This document shows, piece by piece, positions 16,663 to 56,036 of a DNA stretch of 64,000 nucleotides; position 1 is the first letter of the stretch, and every line of letters begins with the position of its first letter. The stretch comes from Escherichia coli phage vB_EcoS_Ace: the sequence record MT833283.1; one strand, given 5' to 3'. The translations under genes and the position numbers were made by a program. The notes beneath the pieces are model-generated. The model had not been told where the DNA came from and ran no database searches. It was given only the letters and a program-made list of their open reading frames with translations.

Positions 16663-16691
16663 TTGCTTTTAGGAAAATTTTTCTGTATAAT
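16663..16691 (+). promoter_or_regulatory. Phage T5 PN25-type early promoter
   Basis: Recalled PN25 sequence (pQE-vector T5 promoter) TTTATTTGCTTT.AGGAAAATTTTTCTGTATAATAGATTCATAAATTTGAGAGAGGAG matches except one position in the spacer. Confidence 0.85.
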
Positions 16692-16722: not shown

Positions 16723-17427
16723 ATGGCTGGTTCTCGTAGAAAGAAACTTATCCATGAAATCCCTGATGAAACCTTTAAAAAGGTTATTGAACATCTGGAG
16801 AATGGTGGTACTAAGAAAGCAGCATGTGAAATGCTCGGCGTTTCTTCTAACCCAACTATGGAACGAATGATCGAGGAATGGAGAGATCGTCAGGTTCAAG
16901 TTGCGGAAATGAAAAAGAAGAAGCGCGGAACACTGATTGAGGGGGTTGAGCTTGCAAACGTAATTGAACAGTATCTTTCTGGTGATTCTTTTGAAGAAAT
17001 TGCTGATCGTAACTATCGTTCTGTAGCGATGATTAAATCTGTTCTGGAACGTTATGGTGCTCTGCTTCGTTTAAACGATATTGTTGATCCATTGAATCCT
17101 CCGTTGATTCCTGATGATGCAATGGCAGAAGAATTTGAAGTTGGTGAACTTGTTTGGGTTCCTGGCTATCAGTGTATTGGTGAAATCAAGAAAGCAATGA
17201 CTAACCCAGTTGGCTGCTACCGTGTTTGGTTGTTATCAGAAGGTAAACAACAGAACGTTCACTATATGCACTACGAATTAGCTTCTGTTAAACATCTGGA
17301 AAAGCTGGGAGTTGATGTTAAGGCTCTGGGCTTTAAATGGAGTCGTGAAGAAGTTATCACGTTGGTTAATGAAGCTGTTAAAGCTGCCTTGAAACTCGAT
17401 AAAGAGAAAGGAAAACGCCGTGAGTAA
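16723..17427 (+). CDS. Putative DNA-binding regulator with two HTH-like motifs
   Basis: 234 aa; GGTKKAACEMLGVSSNPTMERMIEEW and SFEEIADRNYRSVAMIKSVLERYG resemble HTH units; expressed from the PN25-type promoter. Confidence 0.5.
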   Translation: MAGSRRKKLIHEIPDETFKKVIEHLENGGTKKAACEMLGVSSNPTMERMIEEWRDRQVQVAEMKKKKRGTLIEGVELANVIEQYLSGDSFEEIADRNYRSVAMIKSVLERYGALLRLNDIVDPLNPPLIPDDAMAEEFEVGELVWVPGYQCIGEIKKAMTNPVGCYRVWLLSEGKQQNVHYMHYELASVKHLEKLGVDVKALGFKWSREEVITLVNEAVKAALKLDKEKGKRRE

Positions 17428-17703: not shown

Positions 17704-17732
17704 TTGCTTAATCCTGTAATTCTTGATATAAT
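17704..17732 (+). promoter_or_regulatory. Early promoter TTGCTT-N17-TATAAT
   Basis: Hexamers and spacing read directly. Confidence 0.55.
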
Positions 17733-17790: not shown

Positions 17791-18201
17791 ATGACTACTC
17801 CAACTCAGTGGACTGATGAACTGTTCGAAAAAATGTCTTCCGACTACGTTGCTCGTATGGAGCAAATCCCAGAAGATGAGCGTCCGGGCGTTAGCATGGA
17901 AATTGTTAGCGAAATTGCTCAGGAAAATGGTGTAACTCCGAACGGTTTTCGTATGAAGCTGACCAAAGCAGGTCTGTATATCAAGAAAGCTGCTGGCTCT
18001 ACTTCTAAATCAAGCGCATCTACTGGAGAAAAAGCTTCTGGTGGTTCTCGTACTTCCAAAGCTCAGGCTCACTCCGATCTTCGCTCTGCATTCTCTGATG
18101 CTGGCTTAGCACCGGACTTCCTGGACGACGCAATCATCGACAAGCTGACCGGTAAAGCAGCTGCTCATCTAGCAGAAGCTATCCGAGCTATCACTAAGTA
18201 A
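17791..18201 (+). CDS. Hypothetical protein with one copy of the HTH-like module found four times in 21118-21885
   Basis: 136 aa; IAQENGVTPNGFRMKLTKAGLYIK parallels the repeat unit of 21118-21885; host-like codon usage (CTG, CGT, GGT). Confidence 0.5.
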   Translation: MTTPTQWTDELFEKMSSDYVARMEQIPEDERPGVSMEIVSEIAQENGVTPNGFRMKLTKAGLYIKKAAGSTSKSSASTGEKASGGSRTSKAQAHSDLRSAFSDAGLAPDFLDDAIIDKLTGKAAAHLAEAIRAITK

Positions 18202-18237
18202 TTCTTAGATAAATCCACCAACACAAGGAATACAGTT

Positions 18238-18534
18238 ATGAATAAAGCTGAAATTATTGCTCAATGCGAAAAATTTGGTGAGTTTTATCTTCATTACGAA
18301 AAACTTCGTCAGAAAGGAACCACGTACCTTCAGGGTACGATGGGATTTGATCCAGCTCAGGATAAATACCTGGCTGAGCGTATTAAACGTGAGCGCATCC
18401 GTAAGCCGAAAGAAGATGAAATCCTCGTTTTCTCTCGTACTAACGATAGCTTCCGTTTCATTCCTGTTGCGAAAGTTCGCCGTGTGACGAGCCTCCAGTC
18501 AGAGTTAGATCGTGCTTCTCCAGTAGGCCGATAA
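18238..18534 (+). CDS. Hypothetical protein (98 aa)
   Basis: AAGGAA RBS, basic C-terminal half. Confidence 0.45.
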   Translation: MNKAEIIAQCEKFGEFYLHYEKLRQKGTTYLQGTMGFDPAQDKYLAERIKRERIRKPKEDEILVFSRTNDSFRFIPVAKVRRVTSLQSELDRASPVGR

Positions 18535-18544
18535 GAAACCAATT

Positions 18545-18566
18545 AGCCCCTATATGGGGCTTTTTG
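18545..18566 (+). terminator. Rho-independent terminator
   Basis: AGCCCC-TATAT-GGGGCT hairpin followed by TTTTTG. Confidence 0.55.
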
Positions 18567-18584
18567 TGTATTTGGGATATGTAA

Positions 18585-18893
18585 ATGAGCGATCAGGTAA
18601 ATCAAAACTATGAAGGACACGTTGACGACCAGTCCATCATGCTTTGGGAGAAGGAGGGAGAACAAGTAAGACTAACCGTATCTGAATTTCGTGGGAATCT
18701 ATACATGGGAATTCGTTACTGGCTCCAAGATATTACTGGAGAGTGGTTTCCAACGAAATCCGGCTTCTCTTTTCCTTATACCCTAGAAACTACGTCACAG
18801 CTATTCTACGCTTTTACGCAAATCCTCAGTGAATCCGAGGTCTTGCATGAAGTACAGAAACGAGCTGAAGAACTCAAAGCCAAGAATGCCTAG
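18585..18893 (+). CDS. Hypothetical protein (102 aa)
   Basis: ORF with ATG start; no recognisable motif. Confidence 0.45.
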   Translation: MSDQVNQNYEGHVDDQSIMLWEKEGEQVRLTVSEFRGNLYMGIRYWLQDITGEWFPTKSGFSFPYTLETTSQLFYAFTQILSESEVLHEVQKRAEELKAKNA

Positions 18894-18910
18894 TTCTTGG
18901 CTTTTTCTTT
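18879..18910 (+). terminator. Rho-independent terminator overlapping the stop codon
   Basis: GCCAAGAA-TGCCTAG-TTCTTGGC hairpin followed by TTTTTCTTT. Confidence 0.55.
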
Positions 18911-18920
18911 ATAAATGTAC

Positions 18921-18949
18921 TTGCTTTCGACTCAGTTTTCATATATAAT
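18921..18949 (+). promoter_or_regulatory. Early promoter TTGCTT-N17-TATAAT with ATAAATTGATGAGAGGA leader
   Basis: Hexamers and spacing read directly. Confidence 0.55.
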
Positions 18950-18978
18950 ATTTATATAAATTGATGAGAGGATCAATT

Positions 18979-19179
18979 ATGGCAATGACAATAACACTTC
19001 CAAAGATTCAAGCAAAACTTAATTTGCTTTCCATAGCAAAGATCAATTATCAGGACAATATTGGCACTCCAAACCAGAAAGCGTACAAAGATGCGTGGTT
19101 AAAAGAAGCTGCTGATTTAGCTGGTATGGCTGCTCAGTATAATAAAGAACTCAAAATGGAAATCGCAGACGATGAATAA
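18979..19179 (+). CDS. Hypothetical small protein (66 aa)
   Basis: ATG at 18979 with GAGAGGA RBS; track ORF starts at a TTG inside the leader. Confidence 0.4.
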   Translation: MAMTITLPKIQAKLNLLSIAKINYQDNIGTPNQKAYKDAWLKEAADLAGMAAQYNKELKMEIADDE

Positions 19180-20143
19180 TGTAAAAGACTTTATCAAACG
19201 TTGTCAAGAAGCGTACTACCAGGGAATGAGTCTTATTTCCGATGAAGAATATGATCGTCTGATTAAAAGATTCCCACTAGAGGAAGAAATCGGACCGAAA
19301 GGTGATATTCCTCACTTGTATCGTATGTATTCTTTGCAGAAAGTCTATTACGGTCGTGGTGATAAAGCTCCATTCAATCCATTAGGTCAGGTTGAAACTG
19401 ATAAGTTAGATGGCTGTGCAATTTCTCTGTTATATATTAATGGTGAATTTGTTCAAGCGTTAACTCGTGGTAACGGTATTCTAGGGAATGATGTAACGCA
19501 TAATGTTAAAATGCTAAACATCCCCAAAACTATTTCCCAAAAAGTACCAACTCAAATCACTGGTGAAGTTCTCATTACTAAAGAAGTAGAGAACAAACGT
19601 AACTACGCTTCGGGTGCTATTAACCTGAAAGACAGCGATGATTTCATGCAACGTATTGGTGAAGGTGGTTTAATCTTCGTTGCATATGGTATCCAGTGTT
19701 CAGCGGAAACAGTCGGTATTACAGAAGCCTATTTAAAAGATATGCTTTGGCTAGAGAATGAGAACTTCTTGACAGTTGTTAATGTTCGTTCCTTCTTTAA
19801 GTGGATTCCGACGGATGGTAAAGTTGTTCGTATTAATGATAACAACAAATTCTTCCGTGAAGGTTGGACTAATAAATTTCCTCGCGGTGCATTTGCTATT
19901 AAAGAGGATGAAGAAGGCGAAATTACCACACTTGTTAAAGTTGAATGGCAAGTAGGGGCTTCTGGTAAAGTAACTCCAGTTGGTTATTTCGAGCCGGTGA
20001 TTATTGATGATGCCACAATCGTTAAAGCAACTCTTAATAACGTTGATTATATTAACGCTCTCGATTTAGAGATCGGTTGCCAGATTCGAGTGATTCGTGC
20101 TGGTGGTGTAATCCCTTGTATAGTAGAGCGAGTATACGACTAA
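19172..20143 (+). CDS. NAD-dependent DNA ligase, N-terminal (adenylation) subunit
   Basis: 323 aa; KxDG adenylation motif (TDKLDGCAISLLY) and LTRGNG block; ends without the Zn-finger/HhH/BRCT part. Confidence 0.75.
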   Translation: MNNVKDFIKRCQEAYYQGMSLISDEEYDRLIKRFPLEEEIGPKGDIPHLYRMYSLQKVYYGRGDKAPFNPLGQVETDKLDGCAISLLYINGEFVQALTRGNGILGNDVTHNVKMLNIPKTISQKVPTQITGEVLITKEVENKRNYASGAINLKDSDDFMQRIGEGGLIFVAYGIQCSAETVGITEAYLKDMLWLENENFLTVVNVRSFFKWIPTDGKVVRINDNNKFFREGWTNKFPRGAFAIKEDEEGEITTLVKVEWQVGASGKVTPVGYFEPVIIDDATIVKATLNNVDYINALDLEIGCQIRVIRAGGVIPCIVERVYD

Positions 20144-20193
20144 TTCGTAACCCTTTGCTACCCGTTTACCATGTCGGAATTATAAAGTGGTTA

Positions 20194-20222
20194 TTGACAT
20201 TTTCGCCGCTTAGGTATATACT
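20194..20222 (+). promoter_or_regulatory. Promoter TTGACA-N17-TATACT between the two ligase ORFs
   Basis: Consensus -35 and near-consensus -10 read directly. Confidence 0.45.
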
Positions 20223-20285
20223 ATTATCATTCAGTTGAGGGATAGAAAGTTATGGCGAGGGTAAGCAAAGTTAGTTAAAATTGTA

Positions 20286-20314
20286 GTTGCTAAATGCTTA
20301 AATACTTGCTATAA
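20286..20314 (+). promoter_or_regulatory. Early promoter TTGCTA-N17-TATAAT with ATAAATTGATAAGGAAG leader
   Basis: Hexamers and spacing read directly; immediately upstream of the second ligase ORF. Confidence 0.5.
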
Positions 20315-20345
20315 TATTTATATAAATTGATAAGGAAGAAATTTG

Positions 20346-21125
20346 ATGAAAATCGAAATTCCAACACAATGTCCCTCTTGTGGTTCTAAGCTAGATCTTG
20401 TCAACGGGCAATTATTCTGTAGGAATAAGTCCAACTGTCCAGCGCAATCAAGTAAGTTAATCGAGAACTTCTGCACAAAAATGAAGTTAAAGGGCTTTGG
20501 CCCGAAAACTATTGAGAAGCTGGAGCTGACTAAGATCTCAGAACTGTTTTACCTGACCGAAGAAGATTTGGTAGGAGCTGTGGGTAGCAAGGTTGCCGCT
20601 AAGTTGATTAGCGAGTTAAATACTAAGGTTCGCGGAGACATTGACTTTGGTTCAGTTCTCGGTTCTTTAGGAATTCCTCTTATTGGAGAGGTTGCAGCAA
20701 AGAAACTGTCCCAAAATTGCACTAGCTTCCACGATGTGAAGGCTGACGGCAAGGCTGGAGAAAATTACAAAACCTGGCTAAATTCCCCACAAGGCAAGGA
20801 TGTTATTGAACTACCGTGGAAATTCTCAACTGGTATTCGAGGTGCTAAAGCTGATATCATCATTACAGATGATTTAGTTGCCCAGCCAAATGGAATCACG
20901 GTCTGTATTACCGGATCTTTGCAAGACTTTGCAAATCGAACGGATGCAACAAACTATTTAGAAAGTCTAGGATATACGGTCAAGAAGTCCGTTACCAAAG
21001 ACGTCAAATACCTAATCTGTGAGGATGAATCAAAACGTTCTTCCTCATCTTATAAGAAAGCCGAAACGAATGGGATAGAAATCCTGTCGATTAAAGAACT
21101 ATTGGAGAAAAATAATAATGTCTAA
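20346..21125 (+). CDS. NAD-dependent DNA ligase, C-terminal subunit
   Basis: N-terminal Cys4 Zn finger (CPSCGSKL..CRNKSNCP), helix-hairpin-helix-like GFGPKTIEKL, then a BRCT-like tail. Confidence 0.7.
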   Translation: MKIEIPTQCPSCGSKLDLVNGQLFCRNKSNCPAQSSKLIENFCTKMKLKGFGPKTIEKLELTKISELFYLTEEDLVGAVGSKVAAKLISELNTKVRGDIDFGSVLGSLGIPLIGEVAAKKLSQNCTSFHDVKADGKAGENYKTWLNSPQGKDVIELPWKFSTGIRGAKADIIITDDLVAQPNGITVCITGSLQDFANRTDATNYLESLGYTVKKSVTKDVKYLICEDESKRSSSSYKKAETNGIEILSIKELLEKNNNV

Positions 21126-21885
21126 ACTGAACTGGAACGTAGAAGGTGTAACCGAGTCTCTGAAAGCAAAAGCCACTGCTCTGGGTGTTGCTGTAATCTC
21201 TCAAGAACAAGTAGCTGCTATCGCTGCTGAACTGGCTACCGAGACTGGCAAAGACGTTACCGCTCGCTCTGTTGGCTCTAAGCTGCGTAAAGAAGGTTTC
21301 GAAGTACAGAAAGCTAACGAAGTACAGAAATCCCCGTGGACTCCTGAGCAGGAAGCTGAACTAGTTGATTTCCTGAACGCTCATGCTGGTCAGTATACTT
21401 ACGCTGAAATCGCTGCTGCTGTAGCTGGTGGTCAGTTCGGTGCTAAGCAGGTACAGGGTAAGATCCTGAGTCTGGAAATGACCGCTTCTGTTAAGCCAAC
21501 TGAAAAAGCTGCTGCTGTTCGTTCCTTCACTCCTGACGAAGAAACTGATTTCGTTAATCAGGTTGTTGCTGGTGCTACTATTGAAGCTATCGCTGCTCAC
21601 TTCGGTCGCAATATTAAGCAGATTCGTGGTAAAGCTCTGAGCCTGCTTCGTGAAGGTCGTATCGCTGCTATGCCGGTACAGGAAACTTCAAGTGCTAAAA
21701 CTCGTGAAGATCTGTTAGAAGGTCTGGATCTGGCTAACATGACTGTTGCTGAGATCGCTGAGAAAACTGGTAAGTCTGAGCGCGGTGTTAAATCTATGCT
21801 GTCTCGTCGTGGTCTGGTTGCTAAGGACTATGATGGTGCCGCTAAGCGTGCTAAACTGGATGCAAAAGCTGCGGCTGCTGAATAA
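21118..21885 (+). CDS. Putative abundant DNA-binding protein built from four tandem HTH-like repeats
   Basis: 255 aa; four ~55-60-aa units each ending in a basic helix (SVGSKLRKEGF / GKILSLEMTA / KALSLLREGRIA / VKSMLSRRGLVA); strongly host-like codon usage. Confidence 0.5.
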   Translation: MSKLNWNVEGVTESLKAKATALGVAVISQEQVAAIAAELATETGKDVTARSVGSKLRKEGFEVQKANEVQKSPWTPEQEAELVDFLNAHAGQYTYAEIAAAVAGGQFGAKQVQGKILSLEMTASVKPTEKAAAVRSFTPDEETDFVNQVVAGATIEAIAAHFGRNIKQIRGKALSLLREGRIAAMPVQETSSAKTREDLLEGLDLANMTVAEIAEKTGKSERGVKSMLSRRGLVAKDYDGAAKRAKLDAKAAAAE

Positions 21886-28936: not shown

Positions 28937-29299
28937 ATGAAATTCTTTGATTACGAGAGAATTTACCTCTTAGCTAGAGGAAACTCCGACCTGATTGTCA
29001 AGCTATTTAATAGAATGCTTGCAGAGCCTGATGCTCACCAGTTACTGGTCGGTTCTTCATTCATCTTGAATGAATCAACTATTGTTGATAACCCTTACAA
29101 ATTGTCTAATAGACAACTGGCAGAATATCTAGGAATTCTAAGTCTACGAAATTATGCCGAATATAAGTTTACAAACGATCCGAGTTTGGACATGCAATAT
29201 GTCCCCATATGGATACCACGTTCTGTAATCGACACTAACCCACTAATTGCAATCAATAAATCGAAGATAATCTTTAAAGAGGAAATAAAATATGGCTAA
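28937..29299 (+). CDS. Hypothetical protein (120 aa)
   Basis: ORF immediately after the tandem promoters. Confidence 0.45.
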   Translation: MKFFDYERIYLLARGNSDLIVKLFNRMLAEPDAHQLLVGSSFILNESTIVDNPYKLSNRQLAEYLGILSLRNYAEYKFTNDPSLDMQYVPIWIPRSVIDTNPLIAINKSKIIFKEEIKYG

Positions 29300-30065
29300 G
29301 TCTTGGGGCGAAACTACTGGCGGTTCTAACGATAAAATCGACTTCCTGAAATTCAACAACGGTGTAACTCGTGTTCGTATCGTTTCTGGTGTTCTTCCAC
29401 GTTATGTCTACTGGCTGACTAACAAAGATGGTAATGCAGCTCCGTTTGAGTGCCTGCGTTTCAACCGTACTAAAGAGAGCTTCGTTCGCGGTAAAGCTGA
29501 CCCGATTCACGAAATGGGCTTCTTCGAGAAAGAGCTGGACAAAGATGGTAATCGTGTTCCGCTGAAACCGAAGAAAAACTACATCGCTTTCGTTATCGAC
29601 CGTTCTGATAACAAACTGAAAGTTATGGAAGTTAAAGCTACGATCCTGAAAGGCATCCAGTCTATCATGAAGCAGCTGAAACTGTCCGACCCGTTCGATA
29701 TCGATATTTCTATCGAGAAGAAAGGTAAAGGCTTCGATACTGAGTACGATGTACAGCAGATCGCAGCAATGCAGTTCCAGATGGCTCTGAAAGATCCTAC
29801 TAGCGCAGAAGCTAAACTGCACGCCGCAGATGCCGATATCCTCGGTGAAGCTATGTGTGATGATACTGGTGAGTTCATCAAGTTTGAAAAAGTTCCTTCT
29901 CTGGAAGAAACCTACCCGGTTCCGTCCTACGAAGAGCAGAAAGAAGCTATTCTCGCCTTCATGGAAGGTCGTGAGAAGCAAGACGGCGGTGACGCTAAGT
30001 CTGGTGGTGATGCTGGTTCTCAGAAAGGCATCGACGCTGAAGCTGCTAGCGATCTGGACGACTAA
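29292..30065 (+). CDS. Putative ssDNA-binding protein (abundant, acidic C-terminal tail)
   Basis: 257 aa; host-like codon usage; RVRIVSGVLP..APFECL core and acidic tail ending DAEAASDLDD, reminiscent of gp32-type SSBs; by-eye only. Confidence 0.4.
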   Translation: MAKSWGETTGGSNDKIDFLKFNNGVTRVRIVSGVLPRYVYWLTNKDGNAAPFECLRFNRTKESFVRGKADPIHEMGFFEKELDKDGNRVPLKPKKNYIAFVIDRSDNKLKVMEVKATILKGIQSIMKQLKLSDPFDIDISIEKKGKGFDTEYDVQQIAAMQFQMALKDPTSAEAKLHAADADILGEAMCDDTGEFIKFEKVPSLEETYPVPSYEEQKEAILAFMEGREKQDGGDAKSGGDAGSQKGIDAEAASDLDD

Positions 30066-54659: not shown

Positions 54660-56036
54660 TTAAGATGCAGCGTACGCACCAGATACAACGCCATTTTCGA
54701 AGTAACGTTGCAGGTTAACACGCTGAGTAACGTAGTATGCGTCACGCTGTTTGCCAGCTTGGCGCTCACGTTCAACAGTAACAGCACGCTGACGCGGCAT
54801 TACGAAGTTATCTTTATAAACAATAACTGCGAATTCAGCGGAAGCAGCTTTAGCTGGGAAGTACTCAGAAACTACAACTGGCAGACCATAAATACGACCA
54901 ACCTGACCCTGCAGTTTAACAGCATCATTACCAACCTGGGCAACATCCTGCCATTCTTCATCTTCCAGCAGATCGTAGTAAGCATCCATAGATACGATCA
55001 GTACCAGTTTGCTCAGTTTCAGACCATGACGGCCCAGTTTACGACGTAGCTTGGAGATAGTCTTAGCAGTTACCAGAACAGAACCGTCAGCTTTAGCTTC
55101 GGTAACAACCTTAGCACCATCATCAGCAGCTAGTTTCAGCAGACCCTTAGGCTGACCAGTACCATTACCGGACATGAAAGCTTCTTCGATAGAAACAGCG
55201 TGTGCTTCGATCAGACGCTTACGCAGCAGAGGCAGCAGGGAGAAGATTGCATCTTCTTCAGTTTCATCAGTGATGAAGGACTTAGCAGCCAGCTTGTAAG
55301 TTTTGAAGCTGATTTCAGTCAGTTGACCTTTAACTTCGTCACCAACAGTTTCGTCAGTACCGAATTTGGAAGCATCTACCCAAGTAGCACGACCAGCTTC
55401 TGGTTCAACGAGCATTGTAAGGATTTTGCTGGACATTGGCAGTTCATCGAACAGTGCACCAACTACCAGTTCCTTCTGCAGGTCACGGATAATACGGGTA
55501 GAGAAGATAGTTTCGTATGCTTCGCTAGACATGGAAACGGAAGAAGAACCGTTAACAGCTTTAACGTGAGCCTTACCGTGTTCAGTTTCGAATACGTCCT
55601 TCTCCATCATATAAGACAGAAGAACCAGTTTCTCAACTTCATCTTCGAAAGCATCCTGAGTGCCATAAAGAGCTTTAGCTACGCTATCACCAACGAAGGA
55701 ACGACCTTCACGAGCTGCCAACAGAGACTTAATTTCGTCCTGAAGACCAACGATAGTTTCCTGTTGCTTTTCTACAGTCTGTGCAAACAGTTCTGCGCTC
55801 TTCTTAGACTTCTCGTCCAGGTTCTTAACTAGATCCAGAGCTTCTTCCAGACGCTTACGGTCTTCACCAACAGCTTTAGATACTAGGTCGTTCATACGAG
55901 CCAGTTCTTTTTCTTCCTGCTCTTCACGCAGACGCTTAGCTTCCGCAGCTTTCTGAGCAGCAGTCAGACCTTCCAGAGATTTAGCCAGATCACCCAGACC
56001 AAGTTCTTCCTTCAGCTTATTAATATCAATAGTCAT
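54660..56036 (-). CDS. Major capsid protein precursor (pb8-like, HK97 fold with N-terminal scaffolding domain)
   Basis: 458 aa (the length recalled for T5 pb8 precursor); ~160-aa coiled-coil N-terminus then HK97-type body; host-like codon usage. Confidence 0.85.
   Translation of the reverse strand: MTIDINKLKEELGLGDLAKSLEGLTAAQKAAEAKRLREEQEEKELARMNDLVSKAVGEDRKRLEEALDLVKNLDEKSKKSAELFAQTVEKQQETIVGLQDEIKSLLAAREGRSFVGDSVAKALYGTQDAFEDEVEKLVLLSYMMEKDVFETEHGKAHVKAVNGSSSVSMSSEAYETIFSTRIIRDLQKELVVGALFDELPMSSKILTMLVEPEAGRATWVDASKFGTDETVGDEVKGQLTEISFKTYKLAAKSFITDETEEDAIFSLLPLLRKRLIEAHAVSIEEAFMSGNGTGQPKGLLKLAADDGAKVVTEAKADGSVLVTAKTISKLRRKLGRHGLKLSKLVLIVSMDAYYDLLEDEEWQDVAQVGNDAVKLQGQVGRIYGLPVVVSEYFPAKAASAEFAVIVYKDNFVMPRQRAVTVERERQAGKQRDAYYVTQRVNLQRYFENGVVSGAYAAS

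What the first reader, a model, noticed from the sequence alone, without database searches (positions are those of the whole stretch)
17791..21885. Repeated HTH-like module family with host-like codon usage
The 255-aa protein at 21118-21885 consists of four tandem ~55-60-aa units, each ending in a basic helix (SVGSKLRKEGF, GKILSLEMTA, KALSLLREGRIA, VKSMLSRRGLVA). The 136-aa protein at 17791-18201 carries one related unit (GFRMKLTKAGLYIK). Both genes, unlike their AT-rich neighbours, use codons typical of highly expressed E. coli genes, implying very abundant proteins. By position between the ligase and the helicase/polymerase genes, the four-repeat protein may correspond to the abundant T5 early DNA-binding protein D5, whose repeat architecture would then be a new observation.
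Basis: partly seen in the sequence, partly recalled or inferred. Interest (0 to 1): 0.65.

Follow-up and report, generated by a model that had tools for sequence, protein, structure and literature searches.

The report
T5 D5: four tandem HTH modules
The 255-aa gene is the long-known abundant DNA-binding protein D5 of phage T5 (99% identical). It is built from four copies of a small helix-turn-helix DNA-binding module that also occurs in the neighbouring proteins D3 and D2 and in the pre-early protein A2. This refines the description of a known protein and is not a new system.

Summary
The window is a T5-like phage (Epseptimavirus).

- **Identity.** ORF 21118-21885 is 252/255 identical to T5 gpD5 (T5.118). 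ORF 17791-18201 is 132/136 identical to T5 gpD3.
- **Repeats.** D5 has four tandem units of about 50-65 aa. Profile-profile comparison gives U2-U3 E 7e-9 and the other pairs P 1e-4 to 1e-2. All pairs lie 5.8-9.6 sd above column-shuffled controls.
- **Family.** The invariant residues sit in the basic third helix. The N-domain of D3 is a unit-1-type copy (E 3.7e-6). D2 carries one clear unit and one probable unit, collinear with D5 units 3-4 (E 8.8e-6). The pre-early protein A2, outside the window, carries another copy (E 5e-11).
- **Codon bias.** It is strong. D5 has CAI 0.70, first of 65 genes, and D3 has 0.62, fourth. Only the SSB and the major capsid protein are comparable. The bias reflects selection for translation, not host origin.

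D5's DNA binding and its HTH are already known. The four-fold architecture and the A2/D2/D3/D5 paralogy appear undescribed, but they are incremental.

The parts
21118..21885 (+). Gene for gpD5 (255 aa, 27.0 kDa, pI 6.8), the ortholog of T5.118. Its ATG overlaps the end of ligB by 8 nt.
   Evidence: ORF. 252/255 identical to T5 D5. PHROG 323 at E 1.5e-71. CAI 0.70 and Nc 33.
21118..21321 (+). D5 unit 1 (aa 1-68). Helices at 11-22, 29-43 and 49-58. Recognition helix T-A-R50-S-V-G53-S-K55-L-R57-K-E-G-F. This is the 'U1 type', with a longer helix-1/helix-2 region.
   Evidence: AF2. Invariant W6, R50, K55, L56 and R57. hhalign to U2, U3 and U4 gives P 1.3e-4 to 5e-4, z about 9. The GcrA DBD aligns over 46 of 48 columns.
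21328..21492 (+). D5 unit 2 (aa 71-125). W74-T-P-E start, helices at 76-88, 95-101 and 109-118. Recognition helix A-K-Q-V-Q113-G114-K115-I-L-S-L-E.
   Evidence: Weak Myb and HTH_32 Pfam hits. GcrA hhalign score 22.0 against shuffles of 9.0 +/- 2.2.
21520..21675 (+). D5 unit 3 (aa 135-186). F137-T-P-D-E start, helices at 139-150, 155-162 and 166-178. Recognition helix I-K-Q-I-R-G171-K172-A-L-S-L-L-R.
   Evidence: U2-U3 Prob 95.8, E 7e-9. EutK_C, HTH_28 and HTH_23 Pfam hits. GcrA hhalign Prob 72, E 3.4e-5.
21685..21831 (+). D5 unit 4 (aa 190-238). Only two long helices are modelled (210-217 and 221-231). Recognition helix S-E-R-G223-V-K-S-M-L228-S-R-R-G232-L. This is the most sigma-region-4-like unit.
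   Evidence: Sigma70_r4_2 scores 27.7 bits, above the gathering score of 25.7. U3-U4 P 7.5e-5 and U1-U4 5e-4.
21835..21879 (+). Conserved C-terminal helix of D5 (aa 240-254, DYDGAAKRAKLDAK...). Its role is unknown; it may mediate protein-protein or cooperative contacts.
   Evidence: Helix in AF2. G240 is invariant and D237 and K246 nearly invariant. It is unrelated to the C-termini of D2 and D3.
17791..18201 (+). Gene for gpD3 (136 aa), the ortholog of T5.113. Layout: one U1-type module (aa 1-67), a disordered Ser/Gly/Lys linker (68-86), and a small three-helix C-terminal domain (about 89-136) unrelated to the module.
16723..17427 (+). Gene for gpD2 (234 aa), the ortholog of T5.111. Its N-terminal half (aa 9-116) is collinear with D5 units 3-4. 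Unit D2b (aa 68-118, nt 16924-17076) is clear. Unit D2a (aa 9-60, nt 16747-16902) is probable. The C-terminal half is unrelated.
   Evidence: The D2 profile against the D5 profile gives Prob 83, E 8.8e-6 over 100 columns. D2b against U3 gives E 7e-7 and against U4 2.3e-6; D2a against U3 gives 6.6e-4. Only weak HTH Pfam hits.
17704..17732 (+). P-N26-type strong sigma-70 promoter in front of D3 (TTGCTT, 17 bp spacer, TATAAT).
   Evidence: 95% identical to the region annotated as promoter P-N26 in the T5 record.
20194..20315 (+). Tandem P-K28b (TTGACA/TATACT) and P-K28a (TTGCTA/TATAAT) promoters in front of ligB-D5.
   Evidence: 98% identical to the annotated T5 promoters.
16663..16691 (+). P-N25-type promoter in front of D2 (TTGCTT, 17 bp spacer, TATAAT).
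   Evidence: Sequence read. The T5 record places P-N25 immediately upstream of D2.

Best explanation
ORF 21118-21885 encodes the ortholog of T5 gpD5, the early double-stranded-DNA-binding protein required for phage DNA replication, shut-off of early genes and late transcription.

**Shown.** The polypeptide is an array of four anciently duplicated HTH modules of about 50-60 aa, joined by short conserved linkers. Three units are modelled as three-helix bundles; only two helices are modelled in unit 4.

**Inferred mechanism.**
- Each module places its basic third helix in a DNA major groove. The family's invariant residues sit there: R50/K55/R57, Q113/G114/K115, G171/K172 and G223/R230/R231. The structurally closest domain, the GcrA DNA-binding domain, binds DNA this way.
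- One monomer would therefore make up to four linked major-groove contacts. Binding would be multivalent, avid and largely tolerant of sequence.
- The gene has strong promoters (P-K28a/b) and the strongest codon optimisation in the window. The protein should therefore be made in stoichiometric rather than catalytic amounts and should coat replicating phage DNA.
- By coating the template it would affect both polymerases. This would explain the pleiotropic replication and transcription phenotype.

**Paralogues.**
- D3 carries one module, a flexible linker and a small C-terminal domain.
- D2 carries one or two modules and a C-terminal domain.
- The pre-early protein A2 (outside the window) carries one module.
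The phage thus reuses one DNA-binding module in several DNA-handling proteins.
For: - **Identity and context:**. The T5 record's own note reads 'DNA-binding protein; required for DNA replication and late transcription; also is involved in shutoff...'. The title of McCorquodale et al. 1979 is cited.
- **Repeats:**
- **Sequence link to GcrA:** the GcrA sequence aligns end to end with U1, U2 and U3 (scores 22-25, against shuffles of 9-10 +/- 2.2). It puts GcrA G38-K39 onto D5 S54-K55, G114-K115 and G171-K172. In GcrA, G38 contacts a base through van der Waals and water-mediated bonds, and K39 contacts the phosphate backbone.
- **Per-unit HTH Pfam hits:**
- **Paralogy:** D3, D2, A2. Unit HMMs cross-hit only these proteins among 263 + 245 ORFs.
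- **Expression:**
- **Independent functional hints:** T5 escapers of retron-Kva2 carried D5 G53D (unit-1 recognition helix), W74* (first residue of unit 2) and G232D (Gly capping the unit-4 recognition helix). AF3 in that study predicted HTH-DNA binding.
Against: - No DNA-binding experiment or DNA-complex model was made here.
- The relative arrangement of the modules is not reliable (pTM 0.51).
- Unit 4 shows only two long helices in the model, and its link to unit 2 is weak (P 0.013).
- No Pfam GcrA hit was obtained for any unit, and unit profiles do not retrieve GcrA from PDB sequences. The GcrA likeness therefore rests on fold and weak profile similarity.
- D5 is net neutral (pI 6.8), unlike typical coating proteins.
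- The statements that gpD5 binds double-stranded DNA cooperatively and is a major early protein come from my memory of the 1979-1983 papers, which could not be opened.
Confidence: 0.8

Rival explanations
1. D5 is a sequence-specific transcription factor, or a GcrA-like sigma-70 cofactor. In this reading it recognises defined sites at T5 promoters and directly switches host RNA polymerase from early to late genes. It would not be a general DNA-coating protein.
For: The closest fold is GcrA, a sigma-70 cofactor. Unit 4 passes the Sigma70_r4_2 threshold. D5 is genetically required for late transcription and early shut-off. Databases label it a transcriptional regulator. The early-to-late switch mechanism in T5 is still unknown. 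Four different recognition helices could read a composite site.
Against: RNAP purified from T5-infected cells contained gpA1, a pb8 fragment and gpT5.026, but D5 was not reported. D5 and D3 contain no cysteine, so the CCCH sigma-interacting domain that defines GcrA function is absent (sequence). The codon bias equals that of the SSB and the major capsid protein, which suits a stoichiometric protein and not a regulator. From memory, the classical biochemistry describes general dsDNA binding.
Confidence: 0.15
2. The 'repeats' are an artefact of Ala-rich amphipathic helices (17.6% Ala). The similarity to D3 would then be compositional and not homologous.
For: On the single sequence only U2-U3 is significant, and the other pairs have z <= 2.2. 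The U2-U4 profile match is weak. DNA-level repeats are short and weak.
Confidence: 0.03
3. The host-like codon usage and higher G+C reflect recent acquisition of D5 and D3 from an enterobacterial host, not high expression.
For: G+C is 0.47-0.48, against about 0.40 for the neighbours.
Against: GC3 is only 0.34-0.38, so the extra G+C comes from the Ala/Gly-rich composition. The preferred codons are the translationally optimal set (GCT, GGT, CGT, CTG, ACT, TCT, ATC, TTC). There is no blastn match in 5,426 complete E. coli genomes. The family has 548 cluster representatives. Where homologues of the first search sit on long contigs, those are about 105-115 kb, the size of a T5-like genome. The same bias appears in the SSB and the major capsid protein.
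Confidence: 0.02

Closest known systems
Bacteriophage T5 gpD5 (T5.118) and gpD3 (T5.113)
   Same: They are 99% and 97% identical to the window proteins, with the same gene order and the same upstream promoters. These are the same proteins in a sister phage.
   Different: Nothing of substance: three and four substitutions at non-conserved positions. What is added here is the domain architecture, not the protein.
GcrA DNA-binding domain (Caulobacter crescentus; PDB 5yiu; Pfam PF07750)
   Different: No Pfam GcrA match was obtained. GcrA has one DBD plus a linker plus a CCCH zinc sigma-70-interacting domain. D5 has four DBD-like modules and no cysteine. D3 has the DBD-linker-domain layout, but its C-domain is unrelated and has no cysteine. 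GcrA reads methylated GANTC sites; nothing suggests that here.
Archaeal CRISPR repeat-binding proteins Cbp1/Cbp2 (tandem HTH arrays; PDB 2lvs)
   Different: All the matches are far below family thresholds. The module number, organisms and biology differ.
Myb/SANT repeat arrays (c-Myb R1R2R3, SNAPc4, Rap1, Reb1) and the bipartite Tc3/paired HTH domains
   Different: Myb scores for D5 are below threshold (12-18 bits against a gathering score of 24.4). The regularly spaced Trp triad of Myb is absent.
Sigma-70 region 4
   Same: Unit 4 passes the Pfam Sigma70_r4_2 threshold. GcrA itself was noted to resemble sigma-4.
   Different: There is no sigma region 2 or 3. D5 is not a sigma factor.

Membership tests
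T5 gpD5 orthologous group (PHROG 323) | Full-length sequence homology to T5 D5 | tested here: met
   252/255 identical. PHROG 323 at E 1.5e-71 over aa 1-253.
T5 gpD5 orthologous group (PHROG 323) | Conserved position in the early replication cluster (ligA-ligB-D5-helicase D6-primase-polymerase) | tested here: met
   ORFs. Annotations of Seafire, GreteKellenberger and T5.
T5 gpD5 orthologous group (PHROG 323) | Binds double-stranded DNA and is abundant in infected cells | not testable with these tools
   Only indirect evidence: HTH fold, codon bias, strong promoters, and MS detection in a relative.
T5 gpD3 orthologous group (PHROG 1725) | Full-length homology to T5 D3 | tested here: met
   132/136 identical. 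PHROG 1725 at E 6.5e-49.
Internal tandem repeat protein | Units significantly similar to each other beyond composition | tested here: met
   hhalign on the pairs. Shuffled and reversed controls give z = 5.8-9.6. U2-U4 is the weakest pair.
Tri-helical helix-turn-helix superfamily | Three-helix bundle whose helices 2 and 3 form the HTH, with the conserved basic residues on helix 3 | tested here: met
GcrA family (Pfam PF07750) | Sequence match to the GcrA profile at or above the gathering score | tested here: not met
   No GcrA hit was listed for D5, D3 or any isolated unit at E <= 10, though HMMER's filters drop most matches above about 0.1. Only a distant array protein, P0354, reaches 25.2 bits against a gathering score of 26.9.
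GcrA family (Pfam PF07750) | DBD fold | tested here: met
GcrA family (Pfam PF07750) | C-terminal CCCH zinc sigma-70-interacting domain | tested here: not met
   D5 and D3 contain no cysteine (translations).
Myb/SANT repeats (PF00249) | Pfam match above the gathering score | tested here: not met
   11.9-17.8 bits against 24.4.
Sigma-70 family | Region 4 HTH | tested here: met
   Sigma70_r4_2 scores 29.1 bits for the whole protein and 27.7 bits for unit 4 alone, against 25.7.
Sigma-70 family | Region 2 (core binding and -10 recognition) | tested here: not met
   No Sigma70_r2 hit. NCBIfam sigma70-ECF scores 15 bits against a cut-off of 42.9.

The most novel reading that the evidence does not exclude
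T5-like phages have built a lineage-specific toolkit from one GcrA-like HTH module. The pre-early DNA-transfer protein A2 has one copy, D3 has one, D2 has one or two, and D5 has four. In this reading the shared module is also what the type IX retron Kva2 senses. That would explain why its T5 escapers carried mutations in D2, D3 and D5 together, and why all three genes affected growth in the presence of the retron. D5 would then be a phage 'chromatin' protein whose graded occupancy of the template drives the still unexplained early-to-late switch.
Probability: 0.25. Interest if true: 0.55.

Novelty: already known. Interest (0 to 1): 0.33.

Why it matters
D5 is one of the oldest unexplained players in T5 biology. 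It is needed at once for replication, early shut-off and late transcription, and the early-to-late switch is still not understood. It has also just been identified as the trigger of a type IX retron.

The four-module description and the paralogy with A2, D2 and D3 give concrete handles:
- which helices to mutate;
- which single modules to test for DNA or msdDNA binding;
- a reason to ask whether the paralogues share partners or sensors.

This sharpens the annotation of a known protein and does not add a new kind of system. It also suggests that the 'helicase' label carried by D2 in public records is unsupported.

Tried and rejected
- **Unit profiles against PDB sequences.** HMM profiles of units 2 and 3 gave no convincing hit and no GcrA. 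The one sub-threshold hit (E 1.7e-4) was a designed repeat protein with no single stretch passing on its own.
- **Pfam GcrA.** No hit for any unit.
- **Whole-chain Foldseek against the PDB.** Nothing better than E 0.066, so no solved protein shares the overall architecture.
- **DNA-level repeats.** Only short matches of 60-89% identity with a period of 180-189 nt. The duplication is ancient.
- **Host origin of the codon bias.** Rejected (plus GC3).
- **C-terminal domains.** The D3 C-terminal domain, the D5 tail and the D2 C-terminal half are unrelated to each other and to the module. The C-termini of A2 and D3 share only a GGxxxxKA motif.
- **Possible fifth member.** Seafire gp036 (L004:16262-16513), which the U3 HMM hit at E 0.0056, was rejected by hhalign (Prob 3.8).
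- **Classical literature.** McCorquodale 1979 (PMC353123) and Davison 2015 (PMC4743489) are not held, so classical facts are from memory or from record annotations.
- **PF26822.** This Pfam family is precomputed on both D3 and D5 homologues. It is absent from the local Pfam copy and from the literature search, so its name is unknown. Pfam may already define this module.

Full report
**What the window is.** The 6.5 kb around the finding is 99.8% identical to Salmonella phages EH2, EH4 and EH5, and at least 98% identical to many Epseptimavirus genomes of the Demerecviridae, the T5-like phages. In annotated relatives, the 255-aa ORF at 21118-21885 is 'D5 protein' (T5.118), the 136-aa ORF at 17791-18201 is 'D3 protein' (T5.113), and the 234-aa ORF at 16723-17427 is 'D2 protein' (T5.111). 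Against the T5 reference itself, D5 is 252/255 identical and D3 is 132/136 identical. The T5 record notes D5 as 'DNA-binding protein; required for DNA replication and late transcription; also is involved in shutoff...'.

**The repeat.**
- On the single sequence, only units 2 and 3 are significantly alike (z = 8). The other pairs are not.
- I collected homologues (726 hits) and aligned 48 of them at 50-81% identity. I then compared the four sub-alignments profile against profile.
- U2-U3 gives Prob 95.8, E 7e-9. U3-U4 gives 7.5e-5, U1-U2 1.3e-4, U1-U3 2.4e-4, U1-U4 5e-4 and U2-U4 0.013.
- Against reversed and column-shuffled versions of the target profile, which keep composition, the observed scores are 5.8-9.6 sd above the null.
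- AlphaFold2 on this alignment is very confident locally (pLDDT 92.7) but not globally (pTM 0.51). It shows three-helix bundles at 11-58, 76-118 and 139-178, a two-helix HTH at 210-231, and a C-terminal helix at 240-254.
- The invariant residues cluster on the third helices: R50/K55/L56/R57, Q113/G114/K115/L117, G171/K172 and G223/L228. These helices are net basic in an otherwise neutral protein.
- Each unit alone hits a different HTH Pfam family. Unit 4 passes the Sigma70_r4_2 threshold.

**Closest fold.**
- The GcrA sequence, verified against the PDB, aligns end to end with units 1-3 at 5-7 sd above shuffles. This puts GcrA G38-K39 onto the conserved S/G-K dyads of D5.
- In the GcrA-DNA crystal structures the alpha2-alpha3 HTH lies in the major groove. 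I37, G38, H41 and R42 touch bases, and K39, H41 and R42 touch phosphates.
- By sequence, D5 is not a member of the Pfam GcrA family. It also lacks the Cys-rich sigma-interacting domain. I therefore describe the module as GcrA-DBD-like or sigma-4-like and do not class D5 as a GcrA protein.

- The D3 N-domain (aa 2-71) matches D5 unit 1 over its whole length (E 3.7e-6; z = 7.1). D3 continues with a disordered linker and a small helical domain that matches nothing.
- D2's N-terminal half (aa 9-116) is collinear with D5 units 3-4, including the linker (E 8.8e-6). Its second unit is clear (E 7e-7 to U3 and 2.3e-6 to U4) and its first unit only probable (6.6e-4).
- Unit HMMs searched against all 263 window ORFs cross-hit only D5, D3 and D2.
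- I then scanned the rest of a sister genome (Seafire 1-50,000). This revealed a fourth member outside the window, the pre-early 'A2' DNA-binding protein. Its aa 9-64 match D5 unit 1 (Prob 97, E 5e-11) and the D3 N-domain (E 3.7e-5).
- An exhaustive profile search found 548 cluster representatives. The core family is uniformly about 235-262 aa, that is four units. A few long proteins carry 5-10 matched stretches and score as Myb, HTH_23 or HTH_7 arrays.

**Codon usage and expression.**
- D5 has the highest CAI of the 65 window genes (0.70) and D3 is fourth (0.62). The two in between are the SSB D11 (0.69) and the major capsid protein (0.67). The median is 0.28.
- Recoding with background codon usage gives z = 13.4 for D5 and z = 8.0 for D3.
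- Nc, which needs no reference table, agrees: D5 33.0, SSB 31.0, capsid protein 32.1, median 43.8.
- GC3 stays low (0.34), and E. coli genomes contain no similar DNA. The bias is therefore translational selection, not host origin.
- ligB is co-transcribed with D5 and overlaps its start, yet it is essentially unbiased (CAI 0.24, Nc 60.8).
- The T5 promoters P-N25 (before D2), P-N26 (before D3) and P-K28b/a (before ligB-D5) are conserved in the window. From my own knowledge, these are among the strongest sigma-70 promoters known.
- A D5 homologue was among the major proteins by spectral count in a phiR2-01 virion preparation.

**Mechanism.** Shown here: identity, the four-module architecture, the HTH fold, conservation on the recognition helices, the paralogy, and the expression signals. 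Inferred: each module docks a recognition helix in a major groove as GcrA does, so a monomer binds dsDNA multivalently with low sequence demand. At high copy number it would coat the phage template and thereby affect both replication and transcription.

The main rival is a sequence-specific or RNAP-bound transcription factor. D5 is not among the phage proteins that co-purify with RNAP, it lacks a sigma-binding domain, and its codon bias is that of a stoichiometric protein. These points disfavour the rival but do not exclude it.

**Link to recent work.** A July 2026 preprint identifies T5 D5 as the trigger of retron-Kva2 and describes 'a helix-turn-helix motif' binding the msdDNA. Its escapers carried D5 G53D, W74*, V149I and G232D, D3 E30Q and G85D, and D2 E76Q. 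In my alignment these positions fall as follows:
- G53 lies in the unit-1 recognition helix.
- W74 opens unit 2.
- G232 caps the unit-4 recognition helix.
- D3 E30 and D2 E76 are nearly invariant.

That three paralogues of one module appear together in that screen is suggestive, but it is not tested here.

**Verdict.** The object is a known protein with known DNA-binding activity. What is added is the four-module, GcrA-like architecture and the A2/D2/D3/D5 module family. I found neither described in the literature I could search. That search was limited: the classical papers are not held, and an unresolved newer Pfam family, PF26822, already tags both D3 and D5 homologues.

Noticed in passing
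L004:3726-4142 (- strand; Salmonella phage Seafire NC_048110, outside the window): The pre-early A2 protein (138 aa, annotated as DNA-binding and A2) carries the same module at its N-terminus. aa 9-64 match D5 unit 1 at Prob 97, E 5e-11, and the D3 N-domain at E 3.7e-5. Its CAI is 0.47, fifth of 98 genes in that half of the genome.
   Followed up: yes
window 16723-17427 (+): D2 is labelled 'helicase' in RefSeq and PHROG 3611. It shows only HTH-type matches and no Walker A motif by eye, and its N-terminal half is a paralogue of D5 units 3-4. The helicase label looks unsupported.
   Followed up: partly
window 20343-21125 (+) versus 21118-21885 (+): ligB and D5 share the P-K28 transcript and overlap by 8 nt, yet they sit at opposite extremes of codon bias (ligB CAI 0.24, Nc 60.8; D5 CAI 0.70, Nc 33.0). 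This implies very different translational demand within one operon.
   Followed up: partly
window 29292-30065 (+) and 54660-56036 (-): The SSB (D11, PHROG 1607) and a 458-aa ORF that I take to be the major capsid protein (not checked with any tool here) are the only other genes with D5-like codon optimisation (CAI 0.69 and 0.67).
   Followed up: partly
proteins P0360, P0337, P0351, P0354, P0363: Distant relatives of D5 in metagenomes are long 'poly-HTH' proteins (506-1570 aa) with 4-10 matched stretches. They score as arrays of Myb, HTH_23, HTH_7, HTH_38 and sigma-r4 modules. P0354 nearly reaches the Pfam GcrA threshold (25.2 against 26.9 bits). Their genomic origin was not examined.
   Followed up: partly
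window 18585-18893 (+): This 102-aa protein passes the Pfam PC4 (transcriptional coactivator p15) threshold (34.5 bits, E 1.5e-8). It is a PC4-like ssDNA-binding fold and the ortholog of T5.115, lying between D3 and the ligase.
   Followed up: no
D5 and D3 homologues P0046, P0047, P0050, P0063, P0074, P0165, P0167, P0171: The precomputed Pfam column lists PF26822.1 on both D5 and D3 homologues. That family is absent from the local Pfam copy and from the literature search, so its name and extent are unknown. It may already define the shared module.
   Followed up: partly
window 19172-20143 and 20343-21125 (+): The NAD-dependent DNA ligase is split into two ORFs (ligA and ligB). A 199-nt spacer between them holds the tandem promoters P-K28b and P-K28a, as in T5.
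   Followed up: no
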